Shown here: one piece after another, positions 23,209 through 29,965 of the stretch
How positions within the stretch are numbered: position 1 is the stretch's first letter
Layout: every line of letters starts with the position of its first letter
Source: Escherichia coli
GTDB lineage: Bacteria; Pseudomonadota; Gammaproteobacteria; Enterobacterales; Enterobacteriaceae
Reading direction: 5' to 3' (one strand)
Length of the DNA: 64,000 nt
Assembly (NCBI RefSeq): GCF_002854065.1
Contig: NZ_CP024154.1
Program-made: the position numbers and the translations under genes
Notes under the pieces: model-generated
What the model was told of the DNA's origin: nothing
Seen by the model: only the letters and a program-made list of their open reading frames with translations
Databases searched by the model: none

Positions 23209-24313
23209 TGTGATACTCCTCGCTATCTGTTGCTTTCAGGAAGAGGCGAACGGAAGTGGCGTCTTTCAGGATGCCGGACGGCAGGTGCCAGCCGGTATCT
23301 GATAACACCCAGGGGGTTCCGCCAAAACCGAACTGGCGGAAAGCCTGGTTATTGACATCGATGGCAGCACGTGCGGCGGTCAGACACTGTCCATCCTGTG
23401 CGGCCGGTGCATCGCCGGTGGGGGCCATACCACTGTCAGCGGAATACAGCTGATGCCATCCGGTCGCCCGTTTTTGTGAGTCCGGTTCACACAGCAGCGG
23501 AGCAGTCCGCTTTGTACTGGACTCCCCGCCAATCACGGAGACCGGATAAATCACCACGCTGAATTCCCGGGCCAGTTGCTTAAGCGCGGGTTCCAGCAGA
23601 CGGCAGTTGATGCATGCGGGGTCAAGGAAGGCGTACAGCGTGCGTTCATGACCAGTGGACAGGTTAATGGTGAACATCCCCCGGTCTGCGTTGCGTTTAA
23701 GTACTGTGGCCAGATTACGGCGGGCCTCAGCGGCCTGAACGTGTTGTTCTTCCGTCACTGCCGTCGGGGCGGGGGCAGAAGAAGGTTCCTGCTGTGTGGG
23801 AGCCGGGCGGGCCGGGATGCTGTTAACATGATGTTCCGTATGTGGGCGTGGTGTCTCTGTGTCGGTTACTGGTTCAGCTCTCCATTCCTGAGATGTAGGG
23901 TAAGCCAGCGTGGAAGGGGACTCTGCCTTCATCCAGTGGTAACCTGCAACTGTCGCCGGCAGAGCAATTCCGGCGATAAAGCCACACATCAGTGTCCGCC
24001 AGAAGCCATTTTTCCGGGAGGGATGTTTTCCTTTTCCGGCATATTCGGCATCCAGGCAGGCATCAATCGCTGAGAGCATTCTGCCGATGTGATGTCCGGG
24101 ACGTTCTGCATCAACGGTATCAACAAGCACCGTTTCAGTTATTTCGCGAAAAGGGGAACTGAAGGACAGGTGCATCAGCCTGTTATTACGGTTAATCAGT
24201 GCGCCCAGTTCTGTTACCGGCAGGATGGCAATCACCTCCCGATTACCGTCAGGGTACAGGGCGGTCAGGGACAGGTGTTTATTATTCAGTGTTGCAGTGT
24301 AGTGGATGGTCAT
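23189..24313 (-). CDS. trbB: TrbB-like thioredoxin-fold disulfide isomerase
   Basis: CxxC motif (DPACINCRLLEP) in C-terminal half; Pro/Thr-rich linker; trbA-trbB-trbC order. Confidence 0.7.
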   Translation of the reverse strand: MTIHYTATLNNKHLSLTALYPDGNREVIAILPVTELGALINRNNRLMHLSFSSPFREITETVLVDTVDAERPGHHIGRMLSAIDACLDAEYAGKGKHPSRKNGFWRTLMCGFIAGIALPATVAGYHWMKAESPSTLAYPTSQEWRAEPVTDTETPRPHTEHHVNSIPARPAPTQQEPSSAPAPTAVTEEQHVQAAEARRNLATVLKRNADRGMFTINLSTGHERTLYAFLDPACINCRLLEPALKQLAREFSVVIYPVSVIGGESSTKRTAPLLCEPDSQKRATGWHQLYSADSGMAPTGDAPAAQDGQCLTAARAAIDVNNQAFRQFGFGGTPWVLSDTGWHLPSGILKDATSVRLFLKATDSEEYHNEPAPR

Positions 24314-25635
24314 TGTTCTTTTTCCTTGTCGGCGGGATGCTGTTTTTCGGTGGTTTCGGTGGTTTCGGTGGTTTCGGTGGTTTCGGTGGTTTCGGTGGTT
24401 TCGGTGGTTTCGGTGGTTTCACCAGTGTCAGTGTCTTCGTCGTTATCATGGCGGCGGGGTATCACGTCATCCGTGAGTGACCAGCGGGTCCTGATCTGAC
24501 GTTTACGATCGCGATCTGGCTGAGGTTCGTCCCATATCAGGCCCAGCCCCAGCATGTCCCGTCGAAGCCCTTCAATGGCCTCTTCCACACAGGGTTCCGG
24601 GCAGGGGAGGCCGAGACGGCTGGCTTCATTTTCTGCCCGGGCAACGGCCACCACGCCGGCCCCTTCGATGAAGCCTTTTGTGGTGTTTGCCCGGTGAAGG
24701 GCATAGAAGAGCGTCCGGTCAACGCCCTTGAGCCACAGCCAGTTGGGGGGCGTCAGGCGCAAATCATGTGCGTAAAGCCAGACAAGACCGCTGCGAACGT
24801 AACGGTGCTGCCTGAGCCACTGTTGTGCGTCTTCTGTTTTTATGACCCGGATAAAGGCGTTTCTGGCCAGTGAATACACTGGCGTGCTGAAACGCCCCTG
24901 GTCCCGCTTGCTTTTGAGTCTGCAGGAGAGGTTGAGGTTATTCATCAGGGAAACAGCCGATTTCCGGTCCCCAAGGAAGAACTGCAGGCCAAAGACGGCA
25001 AAGAGTGCTTTTTCATGTGGAGCCATGTCTTTCCAGGTGGTCAGAGGCTGGCCCAGTTGCGCCATAAAGCACTGGCGCGTGGCCGCAACATCGAGCTGCA
25101 TGTTGCGGATAAGGTTGTTCTGCTCCACAAAGGCTTCGGGGGTTAGAGCGACACGGCGCTCGGGACGTTTTTGTCCGTGGAAGAGTCTGTTGCTGTCTCC
25201 GTCAGCCAGAACGGGGGCGATCGCCGGTGACAGTGATGAAAACAGATGTGGCAGCGTGTGGATATTCAGTGGTCTGCGGGTGAAGCGGGGCTGGGCCGGA
25301 TGCTGAAACCACATCCACAGAAAGCCGATCGTCATGGGAAGCAGAATCAGCCAGAGGATCCCCACGGTCTGTGACATGACATCCAGCCACTGGCTGAAAG
25401 TGATCGTTGCAGCGTTGTTGGCGGTGTTGGCCAGCAGGTTATAACGGGGGGCGGCAAAATGGTGAAAAGGCCCCCAGTCAGTCATCCCCCACATTGTGTG
25501 CAGGATCAGGCAGGTGGCAAAGACGATGTCGGGTAAAAAGAGCCAGATGAGAAGCGCAAAGAGCAGACATATGGTGCCAACGATATACCATATGTTCATC
25601 GGGTCTTCTGTTGTGGGGGAGTGTTGGTAAGACAC
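24310..25635 (-). CDS. trbA: TrbA-like membrane protein with C-terminal (TET)n repeat
   Basis: 441-aa ORF with N-terminal TM segments; identity assigned by position upstream of trbB; 9-bp in-frame tandem repeat at 24349-24420. Confidence 0.6.
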   Translation of the reverse strand: MSYQHSPTTEDPMNIWYIVGTICLLFALLIWLFLPDIVFATCLILHTMWGMTDWGPFHHFAAPRYNLLANTANNAATITFSQWLDVMSQTVGILWLILLPMTIGFLWMWFQHPAQPRFTRRPLNIHTLPHLFSSLSPAIAPVLADGDSNRLFHGQKRPERRVALTPEAFVEQNNLIRNMQLDVAATRQCFMAQLGQPLTTWKDMAPHEKALFAVFGLQFFLGDRKSAVSLMNNLNLSCRLKSKRDQGRFSTPVYSLARNAFIRVIKTEDAQQWLRQHRYVRSGLVWLYAHDLRLTPPNWLWLKGVDRTLFYALHRANTTKGFIEGAGVVAVARAENEASRLGLPCPEPCVEEAIEGLRRDMLGLGLIWDEPQPDRDRKRQIRTRWSLTDDVIPRRHDNDEDTDTGETTETTETTETTETTETTETTETTEKQHPADKEKEQ

Positions 25636-25779
25636 GAGGATTCCTCCATCGATAAATAGATAAATTTCGGGATGAGGCTGAGTGGAATTAATGCGAACAA
25701 TCGCCGGTAATGACCGGGCAGGGCTGAATTCAGCAGGGCATTTTCACAGGAACAGCAGAAGGTGGTGAGAGACAGGCAC

Positions 25780-25810
25780 AAAAAAGCCGACTGGTGAGGC
25801 CGGCTTTTTT
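25780..25810. terminator. bidirectional rho-independent terminator-like hairpin (copy 1 of a duplicated element)
   Basis: AAAAAAGCCG-ACTGGTGAG-GCCGGCTTTTTT. Confidence 0.5.
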
Positions 25811-26083
25811 GCGATCCCAGGGAGAGTGGGTGGCTCTGGCCCGGAGGAAGTCTCTTTTCAACTAACGTTACCAGAATATCGTTATATTCACCTGATCGCA
25901 ATCTGTTCGTTACAGTCTATTGTTCCGGGAGTAGCGATATCGCCTGAAACAAGTATAATCAGCAAGTTAGCCTTGTCTGGAGACTTACCTTCGCATCAAT
26001 CCATTTGCCGTATTTTCGTAAAATTCAACAGGAAATATTCAACGGGAGTGAGAGAACTGCTGTCCGGGGAGGAGGTACAGACG

Positions 26084-26117
26084 CAAAAAAACCGACTGGT
26101 GAGGCCGGTTTTTTTGC
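26084..26117. terminator. bidirectional terminator-like hairpin (copy 2)
   Basis: AAAAAAACCG-ACTGGTGAG-GCCGGTTTTTTT, nearly identical to copy 1. Confidence 0.5.
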
Positions 26118-26431
26118 GATTCCGGATCGAAGTTGGTAGCCCTGACCGGAAGATAACTGCCTATAACTGACTATGAAATAATACGGCTGAAATAATATTT
26201 CTGCAAGCACAGTATAAGTATATACTCGGTGTGTCAGCTTTGAGGCACGTTCTTTCCGGCATATCGTTCACCGGGATGAACAGGTTGCAAGTCCTGGCCA
26301 AAACATCAGGTGGTGCTGGTTTTGGTGCTCTGGCCGGAGAAGAACTGTCTATAACTGACACTATAGAAAACGTGGCGACAGGCAATGTAAGGGCAAACCA
26401 CGGTGTTCTTTCTCCATTGATGGAGAAGCGG

Positions 26432-26527
26432 ATGATTAACCTGTTAATCATCGTTCTCAGGGCGGTTGTTGCTGTGGCTAACGCAGTGATAGCTCTCCTG
26501 GAACTGATCCGGGAACTGGTTGACTGA
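26432..26527 (+). CDS. small hydrophobic peptide (31 aa), candidate type I toxin-like membrane peptide
   Basis: SD GGAGAA 5 nt upstream of ATG 26432; MINLLIIVLRAVVAVANAVIALLELIRELVD; hairpin terminator downstream. Confidence 0.35.
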   Translation: MINLLIIVLRAVVAVANAVIALLELIRELVD

Positions 26528-26546
26528 TAATCCCGGAAACGTACTT

Positions 26547-26577
26547 AAGGGCAGAGGGTCACCGCCTTCTGCCCTTT
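26547..26577. terminator. bidirectional hairpin between convergent small ORFs
   Basis: GGGCAGA-N12-TCTGCCC followed by T-run. Confidence 0.5.
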
Positions 26578-26589
26578 AACAAAATATGC

Positions 26590-26766
26590 TCAGGTTAAAA
26601 ATCGAAAACCTTCCTGCACTTCCTGTGCCTGTTCCCGTGAGTCAAACATGAGCCGGCTTTTACCCGGAACTCCCCAGGAAATATATTCTACATCCACCCA
26701 CCATTTTCCGTATTCTTCATACGGTCCGGATATCACTTTAGTGACAAATGCATCAACCAGGTTCAT
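26590..26766 (-). CDS. hypothetical small protein (58 aa) downstream of the nuclease gene
   Basis: SD AAAGGTG upstream of ATG; MNLVDAFVTKVISGPYEEYGKWWVDVEY...; below the ORF-track size cutoff. Confidence 0.35.
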   Translation of the reverse strand: MNLVDAFVTKVISGPYEEYGKWWVDVEYISWGVPGKSRLMFDSREQAQEVQEGFRFLT

Positions 26767-26915
26767 TTTTACACCTTTCTGTTATTCTGCTTATTACGAC
26801 CAGCAGACAGCAAATATTAAAAATAACGCGGCGGTAAAAATGGCAATTTTTTCCATGCTGTATTTTTGCCATTTATTTTCTTTGAAATGGTTTTTTTCTT
26901 CATATCAGCAAATAA

Positions 26916-27383
26916 TTATTTCTTATTCTGTTTTCTCCAGGTCCATGGTGGTACCGGATTTTTATCTGCCCATAATCCCCGCTTCAGGGCGCGGGCATCA
27001 CGCTGGAGCGGCGGGAGAGTATAGTCATTATTGTAGTCCGGGTACACCCAGGCAGCGCCGTTACGGACCTGCCAGCGATTTGCTTCTGTGCCGTCAGCGG
27101 TATAGACCCGGCCGAGAATACGGCCATACCTGTCTGTCTGCGCGTATTGCACGGTTACGGGCTTTCCGGCCACCAGGTCCTTCAGCTGAGTGGCTGACCA
27201 GCGTCCAAAGGGCTGTTTCTTTTCCGGTGCATCAATATTAGCCAGACGGACCCTGACAGGCTTTTTGTCCTGTAATATTTCCAGCGTATCACCATCAAGA
27301 ACGCGGATGACGTGCCCCTGAATCTGTGCGGCACAGAGAGAAGCGGAAAAAATAATGGTGAGTGAAAAGATATATTTTATCAT
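26916..27383 (-). CDS. secreted thermonuclease (staphylococcal nuclease-like) family protein
   Basis: Signal peptide; SNase-like motifs (VIRVLDGDTLEI, RLANIDAPE, YGRILGRVY). Confidence 0.8.
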   Translation of the reverse strand: MIKYIFSLTIIFSASLCAAQIQGHVIRVLDGDTLEILQDKKPVRVRLANIDAPEKKQPFGRWSATQLKDLVAGKPVTVQYAQTDRYGRILGRVYTADGTEANRWQVRNGAAWVYPDYNNDYTLPPLQRDARALKRGLWADKNPVPPWTWRKQNKK

Positions 27384-27484
27384 TTCATCGTCTCCTTTTT
27401 ATTTATGAAAACAGGTGCAATTAATATTGCGAAATAATAACGTTCAGGTGTTTTTTTTTGGCAGTGTGATACTTCACGCAGGGC

Positions 27485-28165
27485 ATGAATTCCAGTACGC
27501 TGATATCCGTGATGATACGGCAACAGATATCCGGTGACGGTATGCAGGAACATATTGATTATCAGATTGAGAAATATCAGTTCAGGGCCAGGAATGAGTC
27601 ACCGCGACTGATGCGCCAGTGGGAAGATGTCATGCGTGAATGCCGTGATACCGGAGCAGGAGCCAGGGAGCGGCTGCGGATTGCCTTACTTAATGTTGAT
27701 TATGTGACCAGTTTTGAACTGCCGTTTCGTCTGCTGTTAACCCGGACACCGCAGATGATTGACAGCGTGCGGCGGGAATGGCAGCTCAGCCAGAAAAAAG
27801 TCGTATTCAATGAGCGGCAGCGGGGATGTGTATACAGTCTGCAGAATGACTTATCCGGCGTGCCGGATAGCTTCAGTTACAGTCTTGCGACGCGAATACG
27901 GCGGGTGGACAGCTATGGCATGACGACGCGTTGTTTCACTGATATAGCCGGGCAGGTTAAAGCCCCGACAGCACGGCTGAAACTGGCGCTGGAAAGCGGG
28001 TTAATTGTCACCGCGCTGGATGGTCTGTTCTGGCTTGGTATTCAACGTATTGCCGCAGATGTGCAGCGGCTGCGTCAGTCCGGAATGACAATCATCACCC
28101 GGGATGTTGAGGTCTCAGACTCGCTGACCGGAACCACACGGGTTGTTTCCGGGTACAGCCTTTGA
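27485..28165 (+). CDS. hypothetical protein (up to 226 aa), possible DNA-binding protein
   Basis: ORF; several candidate starts; C-terminal region resembles a winged-helix fold by composition only. Confidence 0.4.
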   Translation: MNSSTLISVMIRQQISGDGMQEHIDYQIEKYQFRARNESPRLMRQWEDVMRECRDTGAGARERLRIALLNVDYVTSFELPFRLLLTRTPQMIDSVRREWQLSQKKVVFNERQRGCVYSLQNDLSGVPDSFSYSLATRIRRVDSYGMTTRCFTDIAGQVKAPTARLKLALESGLIVTALDGLFWLGIQRIAADVQRLRQSGMTIITRDVEVSDSLTGTTRVVSGYSL

Positions 28166-28366
28166 TTTATGCAACAAAGTATCGCAGCGTCGAATATGAG
28201 CTATGGCCAGATTTTTGTTAATCGTGGTTGTTGCAACATGTAAGGCGAATGACCACACTATTCTGGCACGCTCGTAATCATGCTGAAATTCTGCTTCCTG
28301 TCCTGCCGTGATGAGTTCCGACCAGGACATACGGCGAAGTGTATGTCTGTCAGTAATATCCGTCAT
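28115..28366 (-). CDS. hypothetical small protein (83 aa)
   Basis: ORF whose start overlaps the stop of the upstream gene (ATGA); last gene of a three-gene minus-strand cluster. Confidence 0.4.
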   Translation of the reverse strand: MTDITDRHTLRRMSWSELITAGQEAEFQHDYERARIVWSFALHVATTTINKNLAIAHIRRCDTLLHKSKAVPGNNPCGSGQRV

Positions 28367-28578
28367 GAGCTCTCAGCCTCCTCCTTCGTATTTCCGTCAG
28401 AAACACAAACGCCCCGCAGAGAAAATTCGCCAACATTCTCCTTTTTAATGGCGCGCAATGCATCGCGGCAGGCCCGTTCGGTATGAAAGGCCTGGCTGTG
28501 CACCGCCAGTGTGGGCTGACGGGCATCACCGGAAGAGACATTAAAGGGCGATGAAAGCCAGAAAATCAGTAGCCACAT
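28363..28578 (-). CDS. hypothetical small protein with N-terminal hydrophobic segment (71 aa)
   Basis: ORF only. Confidence 0.4.
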   Translation of the reverse strand: MWLLIFWLSSPFNVSSGDARQPTLAVHSQAFHTERACRDALRAIKKENVGEFSLRGVCVSDGNTKEEAESS

Positions 28579-28581
28579 GCG

Positions 28582-28965
28582 TCACACCTCGTCCTTTTTA
28601 TGCGGGTATCTGGACAGAATATTGAGCGCCTGTAATGGCGCTTCATGCATTTCACGGATACAACGGGCATCGGTGATATTTTCCCGGTAATGTGTGGTTT
28701 CCAGCATCATATGATGCATATGGAGCATCCGGGCCAGGGCTGCGCGGAGTTCTTCAATATGTTGTTCATGGGAATGCTGGCGGGGCTGTATCCGGCAGAG
28801 AGGGATAACCTCCACATCATCCGGGTGCGCGCGAAGCCACGCGTCAGTGACTGCAATGTCGTCAGTGTAAAACCATGTGCCGGATGTCCCGTTGGCCAGA
28901 AAACGCATTTTCCAGGCTTCTGGGGTGGCGGTTGTGTTGTTATCTTTCATGGTGCCACCACTCAT
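28582..28965 (-). CDS. hypothetical protein (about 122-127 aa), His-rich
   Basis: ORF only; first gene of the three-gene cluster. Confidence 0.45.
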   Translation of the reverse strand: MSGGTMKDNNTTATPEAWKMRFLANGTSGTWFYTDDIAVTDAWLRAHPDDVEVIPLCRIQPRQHSHEQHIEELRAALARMLHMHHMMLETTHYRENITDARCIREMHEAPLQALNILSRYPHKKDEV

Positions 28966-29240
28966 TCAACAGGCTTAATGCTGTCCAGGCGCAGTCTGCT
29001 CAGACTGCCGTGGCTGCCACAGCGGCGTCCAGTGCTTTTGCTGTAGCACTCCTGCCCCCTGATACACCATGCCGTTGGCGTTTCGTAGAGGCTGACACGT
29101 CGGGTTTTATCTTTAATGATGAGAAGCCCGGTGTGAGTTTTTGTCTTTTTCATCGGTGGGGTACAAACGCAGAGATTTTGTTGTCATCAGTTTTTGCCTG
29201 CAGAGGCCTGAAAAGACAGCGTTTTCAGGCCCTGTTCAGG

Positions 29241-29483: not shown

Positions 29484-29664
29484 GATGTGTCCTTGTTTTT
29501 TATTATTTTGCATTTCAGAAAATAACACGATGCCTGCAGCCCGGAAAACAGATGTGTGCACACGTAGTCACTTTCCGGCTTTATTTCTGTCCCTGACACA
29601 AAATACGTGGTGGCATGAAAAGGATTGTGGCGGACAGGAAAACGATTAGAATAGCGGCGGGCGC

Positions 29665-29958
29665 TTGAGGCTGTATGCCGAAAGCGTTTTGTGGACGGCA
29701 TGTAGCAGAAAGCCCCAGGCGATTTTTTTATCAATCAACCCAGGGCCCACTGTAATGCCTCAACAACATTATAGTAGCCCGATGACGGCCGAAAGGCAAT
29801 GGAGGGGCTGCGATGCCACAACGAACGTTTTTAATGATGTTAATCGTCGTCTGTGTGACGATACTGTGTTTTGTCTGGATGGTGAGGGATTCGCTTTGCG
29901 GATTTCGTATCGAGCAGGGAAATACGGTGCTTGTGGCAACGTTAGCCTACGAAGTTAA
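29665..29958 (+). CDS. pndC: pndC (mok-like) overlapping leader reading frame of the pnd locus
   Basis: Reading frame that overlaps and ends inside pndA in a different frame, as in hok/mok loci. Confidence 0.5.
   Translation: MRLYAESVLWTACSRKPQAIFLSINPGPTVMPQQHYSSPMTAERQWRGCDATTNVFNDVNRRLCDDTVFCLDGEGFALRISYRAGKYGACGNVSLRS
29690..29780 (-). ncRNA. pndB: expected position of PndB (Sok-like) antisense RNA; not delimited from sequence
   Basis: Placed by analogy to hok/sok architecture only. Confidence 0.25.
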
Positions 29959-29965
29959 ACGTTAA
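29813..29965 (+). CDS. pndA: PndA, Hok-family type I toxin (50 aa)
   Basis: MPQRTFLMMLIVVCVTILCFVWMVRDSLCGFRIEQGNTVLVATLAYEVKR; hairpin terminator at about 29975-30005. Confidence 0.85.
   Translation: MPQRTFLMMLIVVCVTILCFVWMVRDSLCGFRIEQGNTVLVATLAYEVKR

What the first reader, a model, noticed from the sequence alone, without database searches (positions are those of the whole stretch)
25780..26117. Duplicated terminator-like hairpin element flanking a roughly 270-bp non-coding segment upstream of trbA
Two nearly identical A-tract/GC-stem/T-tract hairpins with similar 3' flanks (25780-25810 and 26084-26117) bracket a short non-coding region. They may insulate trbA from upstream transcription or delimit a small RNA or mobile mini-element.
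Basis: seen in the sequence. Interest (0 to 1): 0.3.

Follow-up and report, generated by a model that had tools for sequence, protein, structure and literature searches.

The report
Two antitoxin sRNA genes, one orphaned
The two look-alike hairpins are the transcription terminators of two tandem AgrB-type antisense small-RNA genes from a known plasmid "addiction" system (agrB/dqlB); one RNA guards the toxin gene next door, and the other is a leftover whose own toxin gene was deleted.

Summary
Two hairpins (25779-25811 and 26082-26118) sit inside a 52-nt direct repeat that is 87% identical, 305 bp apart, about 142 bp upstream of trbA.

They do not bracket one element. Each hairpin is the Rho-independent terminator at the 3' end of its own 88-nt, minus-strand AgrB-family antisense sRNA gene: sRNA2 runs 26170->26083 and sRNA1 runs 25865->25778. 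Rfam and an independent covariance model support both. Each gene has a sigma70-like promoter.

The locus is the plasmid homologue of E. coli dinQ-agrAB. This agrB/dqlB type I toxin-antitoxin system has been validated on IncL and IncX3 plasmids. The toxin gene dqlB lies at 26432-26527 on the + strand.

sRNA2 pairs with the dqlB 5'UTR (35 bp, -54 kcal/mol). sRNA1 does not (-38 kcal/mol). sRNA1 pairs almost perfectly (-64 kcal/mol) with a second dqlB found in close relatives. The window lacks exactly that 420 bp (target, ORF and terminator), with a microhomology junction at 26001-26004.

sRNA1 is therefore an orphan antitoxin. Its specificity matches the dqlB toxins of IncI1 plasmids.

This is a known kind of system with a small twist. 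Expression and function were not tested.

The parts
26083..26170 (-). sRNA2: an AgrB-family antisense sRNA and the cognate antitoxin of the resident dqlB. The 5' end is at 26170.
   Evidence: Rfam RF02891 gives 47.7 bits (gathering score 40), full length. My own model R1 gives 81.3 bits, E 3e-15. The duplex with the dqlB 5'UTR has 35 pairs at -54.4 kcal/mol.
26178..26206 (-). Predicted promoter of sRNA2: -35 TTGCAG (26206->26201), 17-nt spacer, -10 TATTAT (26183->26178), with the start site 7 nt downstream at about 26170.
   Evidence: Read from the sequence. The layout matches the chromosomal agrA/agrB promoters, whose start sites were mapped by primer extension (PMC3567139).
25778..25865 (-). 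sRNA1: an AgrB-family antisense sRNA and an orphan antitoxin, because its cognate toxin is absent.
   Evidence: Rfam gives 37.4 bits, full length but below the gathering score. R1 gives 71.7 bits, E 4e-13. It is 100% identical to the L003 copy that sits next to an intact dqlB#1. Duplex energies are -64.4 with that target and -38.5 with the resident dqlB. No cognate target exists in the window or in the identical 84,952-bp plasmid.
25873..25901 (-). Predicted promoter of sRNA1: -35 TTGCGA (25901->25896), 17-nt spacer, -10 TATTCT (25878->25873).
   Evidence: Read from the sequence. It is identical in L003 and near-identical in L004, where the antitoxin must be expressed because its toxin is present.
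25954..26003 (+). Remnant of the deleted module-1 toxin gene: promoter -10 TATAAT (25954-25959) and the first 37 nt or so of the dqlB#1 5'UTR.
   Evidence: This stretch is collinear with L003 module 1, L004 and IncI1 L005 up to ...CATCAATCCAT, after which the window diverges.
26001..26004 (.). Deletion junction. 420 bp (L003 781-1200) are missing here, with 3-4 bp of microhomology (CCA).
   Evidence: blastn: window 25500-26004 matches L003 276-780, and window 26001-26700 matches L003 1201-1900. The junction sequences are shown.
26004..26082 (.). Spacer that lay between module 1 and module 2 in the two-module ancestor.
   Evidence: 99.9% identical to L003 1201-1282.
26221..26226 (+). Predicted -10 (TATACT) of the dqlB promoter. 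The start site is about 26234, placed by homology to dinQ +1. No LexA operator is present here.
   Evidence: No CTG-N10-CAG motif occurs in the promoter region.
26325..26359 (+). sRNA2 target site in the dqlB 5'UTR. On the DNA it is a direct repeat of the sRNA 5' segment (26139-26171). It contains regulatory element 2 (26334-26345).
   Evidence: Repeat D2, the duplex, and elements 1-4 located. The mechanism is known for dinQ (PMC5066626).
26432..26527 (+). dqlB, a 31-aa DinQ-like type I membrane toxin. The SD sequence GGAG is at 26422-26425.
   Evidence: NCBIfam NF041473 gives 63.7 bits against a cutoff of 35. RefSeq annotates it as WP_001363141.1.
26547..26577 (+). Terminator hairpin of the dqlB mRNA.
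   Evidence: Inverted repeat I20. It is homologous to the dinQ terminator.

Best explanation
The two hairpins are the intrinsic terminators of two tandem, co-oriented AgrB-family antisense sRNA genes on the minus strand. The genes belong to a plasmid agrB/dqlB type I toxin-antitoxin (post-segregational killing) locus on an IncK2/Z-type I-complex plasmid.

sRNA2 is proximal (26170->26083). Its first 35 nt or so should base-pair with the 5'UTR of the divergently transcribed dqlB mRNA (26325-26359). As shown for AgrB and dinQ, this pairing would keep the ribosome-binding site closed and block synthesis of the 31-aa membrane toxin. When the plasmid is lost, the unstable sRNA would decay first and the toxin would kill the cell.

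sRNA1 is distal (25865->25778). It is the antitoxin of a second, paralogous module with a different recognition sequence. In this plasmid lineage a 420-bp microhomology deletion removed that module's target site, toxin ORF and terminator. What remains is an intact sRNA gene with its promoter and a stub of the toxin promoter and 5'UTR.

The sequence shows the family membership, strand, architecture, complementarity pattern and deletion. Transcription, termination at the hairpins, antitoxin activity and killing on plasmid loss are inferred.
For: Both copies hit Rfam AgrB full length on the minus strand, at 47.7 and 37.4 bits. An independent covariance model, built from chromosomal, IncFII, IncI1, IncI-gamma and IncX3 copies, finds exactly these two sites in the 64 kb: 81.3 bits (E 3e-15) and 71.7 bits (E 4e-13).

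The hairpins are more stable in the sRNA sense (z about -6) than in the opposite sense. The terminator and the central stem are kept across copies, with 95.7% of cells paired against 32-56% when the partners are slid, and 4 pairs carry double changes.

The locus is collinear with MG1655 dinQ-agrA-agrB, including the promoter geometry and the four 5'UTR elements. DqlB passes NCBIfam NF041473, and RefSeq annotates dqlB there.

Cognate sRNA/target pairs across 12 modules score -51 to -67 kcal/mol. Non-cognate pairs score about -30 to -45.

sRNA1 scores -64.4 on L003 dqlB#1 and -38.5 on the resident dqlB. sRNA2 scores -54.4 on the resident dqlB.

The window equals L003 minus L003 781-1200. L003, L004 and L005 are collinear through the deleted part. 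No sRNA1 target exists in the window or in the whole identical plasmid.

Homologous agrB/dqlB loci are experimentally toxic, are neutralised by agrB, and stabilise plasmids (PMC12365149; PMC12317039). The pairing mechanism is established for dinQ (PMC5066626).
Against: There are no expression data for this plasmid.

sRNA1 is below Rfam's gathering score, and its -10 element (TATTCT) is imperfect.

The duplex energies are in-silico values on excised segments. The MFE fold of the dqlB mRNA did not by itself reproduce the open/closed SD switch.

sRNA1 is identical in the deleted and the intact lineages, so there is no signal of selection for or against keeping it.
Confidence: 0.88

Rival explanations
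1. The orphan sRNA1 is kept because it is useful. It acts as an anti-addiction or cross-immunity determinant that neutralises class-A dqlB toxins carried by competing I-complex plasmids (IncI1 and two-module IncB/O/K/Z). This would let the plasmid displace them without the host being killed.
For: The sRNA1 gene and promoter are 100% identical to the copy that protects against dqlB#1 in L003. It pairs at -59.8 to -63.5 kcal/mol with the dqlB 5'UTRs of IncI1 L005, L004 and L003.

Class-A toxins are common: about 482 IncI1-type records and about 85 two-module records. The deleted form is itself widespread, with about 148 records at 99% identity or better.

An IncFII plasmid also carries an extra AgrB copy that best matches the toxin of another Inc group (L008 copy c against the IncX4 UTR, -63.9).
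Against: A toxin-only deletion is the only viable direction of loss, so an orphan antitoxin is expected as a neutral by-product. The deletion looks recent, with no divergence, so nothing shows selection for retention. No competition data exist.
Confidence: 0.2
2. sRNA1 behaves like chromosomal AgrA. It would be a partly mismatched second regulator that still modulates the resident dqlB mRNA.
For: The architecture mirrors agrA/agrB, and AgrA lowers full-length dinQ mRNA levels (PMC3567139). sRNA1 retains pairing to the GC-rich half of the target (GCUCUGGCCGGAG). At -38 kcal/mol the duplex is about 3 sd below the plasmid-wide background.
Against: -38 kcal/mol falls within the non-cognate range of the matrix, whereas agrA on dinQ scores -47. 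The 5' seed region has 5 mismatches in 16 nt. AgrA itself does not bind dinQ or block its translation in vitro (PMC5066626).
Confidence: 0.1
3. The hairpins exist mainly to insulate trbA (and trbBC) from upstream transcription.
For: Both sRNA genes, and any minus-strand read-through, point toward trbA. The distal terminator lies 142 bp upstream of trbA. Both hairpins are A-tract/T-tract symmetric and were flagged as terminators on the + strand as well.
Against: The hairpins are conserved parts of AgrB sRNAs wherever these occur, including the chromosome and IncX and IncF plasmids that have no trbA nearby. In IncI1 a pnd locus lies between agrB and trbA. Insulation is therefore at most a by-product.
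Confidence: 0.07
4. The hairpin pair marks the ends of a small mobile element (MITE-like), or the pair is a chance repeat.
For: Two similar palindromic sequences lie 305 bp apart.
Against: The repeats are direct, not terminal inverted, and no target-site duplication is present. The whole interval is accounted for by homology to two-module relatives plus one deletion. The family has only these two copies in the 64 kb.
Confidence: 0.01

Closest known systems
E. coli K-12 chromosomal dinQ-agrAB type I TA locus (Weel-Sneve 2013, PMC3567139; Kristiansen 2016, PMC5066626)
   Same: The toxin gene is divergent from two tandem, co-oriented sRNA genes of about 85 nt. Each sRNA has its own sigma70 promoter and Rho-independent terminator. 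The 5' 31-36 nt of the sRNA are complementary to a 5'UTR site that contains element 2. The four mutually exclusive UTR elements and the toxin terminator are homologous.
   Different: This locus is on a plasmid. No LexA operator overlaps the toxin promoter. In K-12 the cognate sRNA is the distal one (agrB), and here it is the proximal one. The extra copy here is not a decayed duplicate of the cognate antitoxin. It is the intact antitoxin of a second module of different specificity whose toxin was deleted.
Plasmid agrB/dqlB TA of pOXA-48 (IncL; PMC12365149) and pOXA-484 (IncX3; PMC12317039)
   Same: It has the same DqlB toxin family and the same trans-acting AgrB antitoxin logic. Toxicity, rescue by agrB and plasmid stabilisation were demonstrated for these plasmids. 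The pOXA-48 paper reports dqlB in 83% of IncB/O/K/Z plasmids and 67% of IncI1 plasmids.
   Different: Those loci were described with a single agrB, and the IncX3 study searched for agrA and found none. Here there are two sRNA genes of different specificity and one toxin. The IncL/M agrB is too divergent to be found by the Rfam model.
Two-module agrB/dqlB arrangement in close relatives (for example NZ_CP024247.1 = L003, NC_018995.1)
   Same: The sRNA1 and sRNA2 sequences are identical, and so are the position next to trbA and the right-hand flank, which matches at 99.9%.
   Different: Those plasmids keep the 420 bp that carry the dqlB#1 target, ORF and terminator. The window lineage has lost them.
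zorO-orzO / OrzO-P sRNA (Rfam RF02083)
   Same: This is also a divergent, non-overlapping type I TA whose antitoxin pairs with a long 5'UTR. Its terminator hairpin is nearly the same, with the loop CCUCACCAG. Weak Rfam hits of 29-31 bits cover the hairpins only.
   Different: Only the terminator matches, at a score far below the gathering score of 60. The toxin and the sRNA body belong to the DinQ/AgrB family.
Anti-addiction by orphan or chromosomal antitoxins (for example chromosomal ccd against F-plasmid ccd; cited from my own knowledge, with reviews listed)
   Same: An antitoxin without its own toxin could neutralise a toxin encoded on another replicon.
   Different: The known examples are protein (type II) antitoxins. 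Here the idea is only an inference for an RNA antitoxin.

Membership tests
AgrB antisense sRNA (Rfam RF02891) | A full-length covariance-model match at or above the gathering score of 40 bits. | tested here: met
   sRNA2 scores 47.7 bits over model positions 1-84 of 84.
AgrB antisense sRNA (Rfam RF02891), distal copy sRNA1 | A full-length covariance-model match at or above the gathering score of 40 bits. | tested here: not met
   sRNA1 scores 37.4 bits, full length, E 9e-4 in 5 kb. However, model R1, which includes plasmid copies from other replicons, gives 71.7 bits and E 4e-13. Rfam's seed appears to be too chromosome-centred.
AgrB antisense sRNA | Its own sigma70 promoter, a start at U(U/C)AG, a central stem-loop (CCGG..GAGCCACCAACUC..CCGG) and a Rho-independent terminator. 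| tested here: met
   Both copies meet this. The promoters are at 17-nt spacing with the start site 7 nt after the -10 element. The structure is conserved, with 95.7% of cells paired.
AgrB antisense sRNA | About 30 nt or more at the 5' end complementary to the 5'UTR of an adjacent, divergent dinQ/dql toxin mRNA. | tested here: met
   sRNA2 forms 35 pairs at -54.4 kcal/mol with 26325-26359. For sRNA1 this is met only against toxins that are absent from this plasmid (-64.4 on L003 dqlB#1). The resident dqlB gives -38.5, which is in the non-cognate range.
DqlB (DinQ-like type I toxin, NCBIfam NF041473) | An HMM score above the curated cutoff of 35 bits for a small single-helix hydrophobic peptide. 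| tested here: met
   63.7 bits over residues 1-31 of 31.
dinQ-type regulated toxin mRNA | A long 5'UTR with four mutually exclusive elements (1:2, 2:3 and 3:4, where element 4 is the SD). | tested here: met
   Elements lie at 26249-59, 26334-45, 26405-15 and the SD at 26422-27. Pairwise duplexes score -13.0, -11.1 and -7.8. The functional switch itself was not tested.
dinQ-type regulated toxin mRNA | SOS (LexA) control of the toxin promoter. | tested here: not met
   No CTG-N10-CAG motif occurs at the promoter. The only such motif (26294) lies in the 5'UTR. This feature defines chromosomal dinQ, not the dql family.
Type I toxin-antitoxin / post-segregational killing module | The toxin kills, the sRNA neutralises it, and the sRNA is less stable than the toxin mRNA. 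| not testable with these tools
   This was shown for homologues on pOXA-48 and pOXA-484. It has not been shown for this plasmid.

The most novel reading that the evidence does not exclude
I-complex and other enterobacterial plasmids carry AgrB antitoxin sRNAs in several discrete specificity classes. Extra, toxin-less copies, such as sRNA1 here or copy c in an IncFII array, may be retained as RNA-based anti-addiction or cross-immunity genes. They would disarm the dqlB killing system of competing plasmids; here that means class-A dqlB of IncI1. This would be the first RNA-antitoxin example of inter-plasmid anti-addiction.
Probability: 0.2. Interest if true: 0.6.

Novelty: new member of a known kind. 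Interest (0 to 1): 0.3.

Why it matters
This resolves an unannotated "non-coding" stretch next to the transfer genes of a widespread IncK2/Z resistance-plasmid backbone. The stretch is part of a known addiction system whose RNA components the annotation pipelines miss.

The analysis also gives a ready-made specificity map. The recognition ends of the sRNAs and their UTR targets co-vary in discrete classes.

It documents a natural toxin-only deletion that leaves an orphan antitoxin matched to the toxins of IncI1 plasmids. That makes a simple hypothesis about plasmid-plasmid competition directly testable. It is also relevant to plasmid-curing strategies that rely on triggering TA killing.

Tried and rejected
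RNAduplex on the full sRNA against the whole mRNA allowed huge internal loops, and shuffled controls gave nearly as low energies. I replaced it with the 5' 40-42 nt of each sRNA against defined UTR segments.

RNAalifold on the MAFFT alignment A1 missed the terminator because several sequences were out of register. I replaced it with per-sequence folds and a hand-specified structure on A2.

I looked for selection on sRNA1 by comparing the window with L003. All 27 differences lie in or next to the trbA 5' end, so the comparison is uninformative.

I searched for a second dqlB, a second AgrB or an sRNA1 target elsewhere in the window and in the complete identical plasmid, and found none. The "2 places" reported were most likely the internal repeat.

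I looked for a LexA operator at the dqlB promoter and found none.

The 114-aa ORF across the segment was rejected as coding.

The mobile-element and chance-repeat readings were rejected.

A literature search for described orphan type I RNA antitoxins on plasmids returned nothing relevant.

Full report
**Observation.** The two hairpins exist as described. One search reports perfectly complementary arms at 25779-25789/25801-25811 and at 26082-26094/26106-26118. They sit inside a 52-nt direct repeat (25767-25818 and 26072-26123, 87% identical, 305 bp apart).

The folds are far more stable than shuffled sequence, and more so on the minus strand. Minus-strand energies are -21.2 and -20.9 kcal/mol (z -5.9 and -6.3). 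Plus-strand energies are -16.4 and -19.2 kcal/mol (z -3.1 and -4.3). The two copies differ at one stem position by a compensatory change, G:C in one and A:T in the other.

trbA lies at 25635->24310 on the minus strand, followed by a DsbC-like trbB and then trbC. The element is therefore 142 bp upstream of trbA.

**Identity.** An Rfam scan of 24000-29000 places each hairpin at the 3' end of a full-length, minus-strand match to AgrB (RF02891). The first is 26170->26083 at 47.7 bits, above the gathering score of 40. The second is 25865->25778 at 37.4 bits, just below it.

Because the distal copy falls below Rfam's threshold, I built a separate covariance model. It used ten AgrB copies from the K-12 chromosome and from IncFII, IncI1, IncI-gamma and IncX3 plasmids, and excluded the window and its close relatives. 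One seed copy (IncI1 L005) has the same recognition class as sRNA1, so the test is not fully independent for that copy.

Over the whole 64 kb this model finds exactly these two sites: 81.3 bits (E 3e-15) and 71.7 bits (E 4e-13). The next hit is a 17-bit echo at the toxin's target repeat.

On the model alignment the three helices are 95.7% paired, against 32-56% when the partners are slid. Four pairs carry double changes. Eighteen copies folded individually all keep a strong terminator despite sequence differences.

Both window copies have sigma70-like promoters in the same geometry as chromosomal agrA/agrB, whose start sites were mapped experimentally (PMC3567139).
- sRNA2: TTGCAG, 17-nt spacer, TATTAT.
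- sRNA1: TTGCGA, 17-nt spacer, TATTCT.
- In both, the start site lies 7 nt downstream of the -10 element at U(U/C)AG.

**Context.** The window is 100% identical over this region to IncK2/Z-type plasmids such as pBOKZ_020007. RefSeq annotates the small + strand ORF at 26432-26527 as "DinQ-like type I toxin DqlB". It scores 63.7 bits against NCBIfam NF041473, whose cutoff is 35.

Set beside the MG1655 gor-arsR intergenic region, the locus is collinear with dinQ-agrA-agrB. A toxin gene lies divergent from two tandem sRNA genes. The long 5'UTR carries the four mutually exclusive elements, at 26249-59, 26334-45, 26405-15 and the SD at 26422-27. The toxin terminator is homologous.

The chromosomal LexA operator over the -10 element is not conserved.

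The mechanism is established for dinQ. The first 36 nt of AgrB pair with G88-A119 of the mRNA, which closes the SD stem-loop and blocks translation (PMC5066626).

Plasmid agrB/dqlB loci have been shown to be toxic, to be rescued by agrB, and to stabilise pOXA-48 (IncL) and an IncX3 plasmid. dqlB was reported in 83% of IncB/O/K/Z plasmids and 67% of IncI1 plasmids (PMC12365149; PMC12317039). The system itself is therefore known.

**Which sRNA does what.** I used the 5' 42 nt of each sRNA against defined UTR segments.

| sRNA | Target | Pairs | Energy (kcal/mol) |
|---|---|---|---|
| sRNA2 | resident dqlB 5'UTR (26325-26359) | 35 | -54.4 |
| sRNA1 | resident dqlB 5'UTR | 34 | -38.5 |
| sRNA1 | dqlB#1 target in relative L003 | 39 | -64.4 |
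| sRNA2 | dqlB#1 target in relative L003 | 30 | -37.3 |

The sRNA2 duplex on the resident target has two true mismatches, and the other deviations are G:U pairs.

I then ran a matrix of 18 sRNAs against 16 toxin UTRs. Cognate neighbours score -51 to -67 kcal/mol; for example K-12 agrB on dinQ scores -62.7. Non-cognate pairs score about -30 to -45, and agrA on dinQ scores -47.2.

The 5' 22 nt or so of the sRNAs are hypervariable, while the rest is conserved. The targets change in step with them. This is strong comparative evidence for functional antisense pairing and for discrete specificity classes.

sRNA2 belongs to the class also found in IncI-gamma L006. sRNA1 belongs to the class found in IncI1 L005 (-59.8), L004 (-63.5) and module 1 of L003.

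**Origin of the 270-bp segment.** A close relative, NZ_CP024247.1 (locus L003), carries two complete modules next to trbA: sRNA1 with dqlB#1, then sRNA2 with dqlB#2. Its sRNA sequences are identical to the window's.

Window 25500-26004 aligns to L003 276-780, and window 26001-26700 aligns to L003 1201-1900 at 99.9% identity. The window therefore lacks L003 781-1200, which is 420 bp. The junction has 3-4 bp of microhomology.

The missing piece is exactly the sRNA1 target site, the dqlB#1 ORF, its terminator and about 120 bp downstream.

L003 module 1, the single-module L004 and IncI1 L005 are all collinear through this region. The window follows them up to ...CATCAATCCAT and then jumps. The window's state is therefore the derived one.

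The inter-hairpin segment is made up as follows:
- the sRNA1 body (to 25865);
- the sRNA1 promoter (25873-25901);
- the leftover dqlB#1 promoter (-10 TATAAT at 25954-25959) and about 37 nt of its 5'UTR;
- the deletion junction (26001-26004);
- the old inter-module spacer (to 26082).

No sRNA1 target exists elsewhere in the window or in the complete, identical 84,952-bp plasmid. In that plasmid the best trans sites score about -40 against a background of -20.6 +/- 5.3.

Both forms circulate in the plasmid collection. About 148 records match the deleted form at 99% identity or better. About 85 records carry the 420-bp segment at 99% or better.

**Interpretation of the orphan.** The parsimonious reading is a relic. 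Losing only the toxin is viable, while losing only the antitoxin is not. A toxin-only deletion that leaves an intact antitoxin gene is therefore expected.

The sRNA1 gene and promoter are identical to those in plasmids where they must be active, so sRNA1 is probably still made. There is no divergence from which to judge selection: all 27 differences from L003 lie in or next to the trbA 5' end.

A more interesting reading cannot be excluded. sRNA1 may give cross-immunity against class-A dqlB toxins, which occur on about 482 IncI1-type records and on the two-module plasmids.

An IncFII plasmid (L008) carries five AgrB copies for two toxins. One of them best matches the IncX4 toxin UTR at -63.9. 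Surplus "foreign-specificity" copies are therefore not unique to this window. I put the adaptive reading at about 0.2.

An AgrA-like residual effect of sRNA1 on the resident dqlB is unlikely, at about 0.1.

"Terminator-like" and "small RNA" are right.

Insulation of trbA is at most a by-product. The hairpins travel with AgrB genes on the chromosome and on IncX and IncF plasmids that have no trbA nearby. In IncI1 a hok/sok (pnd) locus separates them from trbA.

One nuance is worth keeping. The leftover dqlB#1 promoter could drive a + strand stub RNA of about 150 nt that ends at hairpin 2. That hairpin has a T-run on the + strand as well. This is untested.

**Verdict.** The feature is real and fully explained. 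It belongs to a known system (agrB/dqlB, the plasmid counterpart of dinQ-agrAB) whose RNA genes are not annotated.

The modest new points are these:
- there are two sRNA genes of different specificity;
- the orphaning deletion is defined to the base;
- the recognition ends and targets fall into specificity classes;
- the orphan sRNA matches the toxins of IncI1 plasmids.

Transcription, termination, antitoxin activity and killing on plasmid loss are inferred, not shown.

Noticed in passing
window 29659-29815 (+) and the ORF just downstream (about 29813-29965): There is a second, unrelated type I TA on the same plasmid. Sok antisense RNA scores 124.7 bits in Rfam, and a Hok/Gef (pnd-like) toxin gene follows it. 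In IncI1 relatives this locus sits between trbA and agrB instead.
   Followed up: partly
window 24345-24420 (trbA 3' end, minus strand): A perfect 9-bp tandem repeat with 8.4 copies encodes a (TTE)n tract near the TrbA C-terminus. It is likely to vary in length between plasmids.
   Followed up: partly
window 25515-25637: 26 of the 27 differences from the otherwise near-identical relative L003 cluster in the first 120 nt or so of trbA. This looks like a recombination patch or a variable TrbA N-terminus.
   Followed up: no
L007 (NZ_OR916390.1) 1260-1503: This IncK2/Z plasmid shows a different inactivating rearrangement. Recombination between the sRNA 5' repeat and the target repeat fuses the sRNA gene directly to the toxin UTR. 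It deletes both promoters and leaves a shortened dqlB annotation.
   Followed up: partly
L008 (NZ_CP022492.1) 1031-2259: This IncFII Salmonella plasmid carries five AgrB copies, in tight arrays of two and three (115-174 nt start to start), for two dqlB genes. Some gaps between copies (about 28 nt) are too short for a separate promoter. Copy c best matches the IncX4 dqlB UTR at -63.9 kcal/mol.
   Followed up: partly
L011, L014 (IncL/M, pOXA-48-like): Rfam RF02891 finds no AgrB at E<=1 beside these dqlB genes, although an agrB was validated experimentally on pOXA-48. The Rfam model misses divergent plasmid members, and the window's distal copy also falls below its gathering score.
   Followed up: no
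window 25780-25810 and 26085-26115 (minus strand): The terminator hairpins also hit the 3' end of Rfam OrzO-P (antitoxin of zorO) at 29-31 bits and share the loop CCUCACCAG. This suggests a shared or exchanged terminator module between two type I antitoxin families.
   Followed up: no
window 26294-26309: The only CTG-N10-CAG motif near dqlB lies in the 5'UTR stem-loop, not at the promoter. It is homologous to the site listed as a putative SOS box for dqlB on plasmid pTF2 (PMC12211044). The true chromosomal LexA operator position is not conserved here, so SOS control of plasmid dqlB is doubtful.
   Followed up: partly
window 26590-26766 (-): A conserved 58-aa hypothetical ORF (WP_001054907.1) lies convergent to dqlB. 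Its 3' part was included in the ancestral module duplication (L003 1100-1198). It has no family match.
   Followed up: no
window 26297-26330: A third hairpin-like sequence (CCAAAAC...GGTTTTGG) lies just 5' of the sRNA2 target. By position it aligns with a conserved stretch of the dinQ/dql 5'UTR (possibly the stem-loop that Kristiansen 2016 call SL2), and it does not look like a third terminator copy. It accounts for the faint 17-bit hit of model R1.
   Followed up: partly
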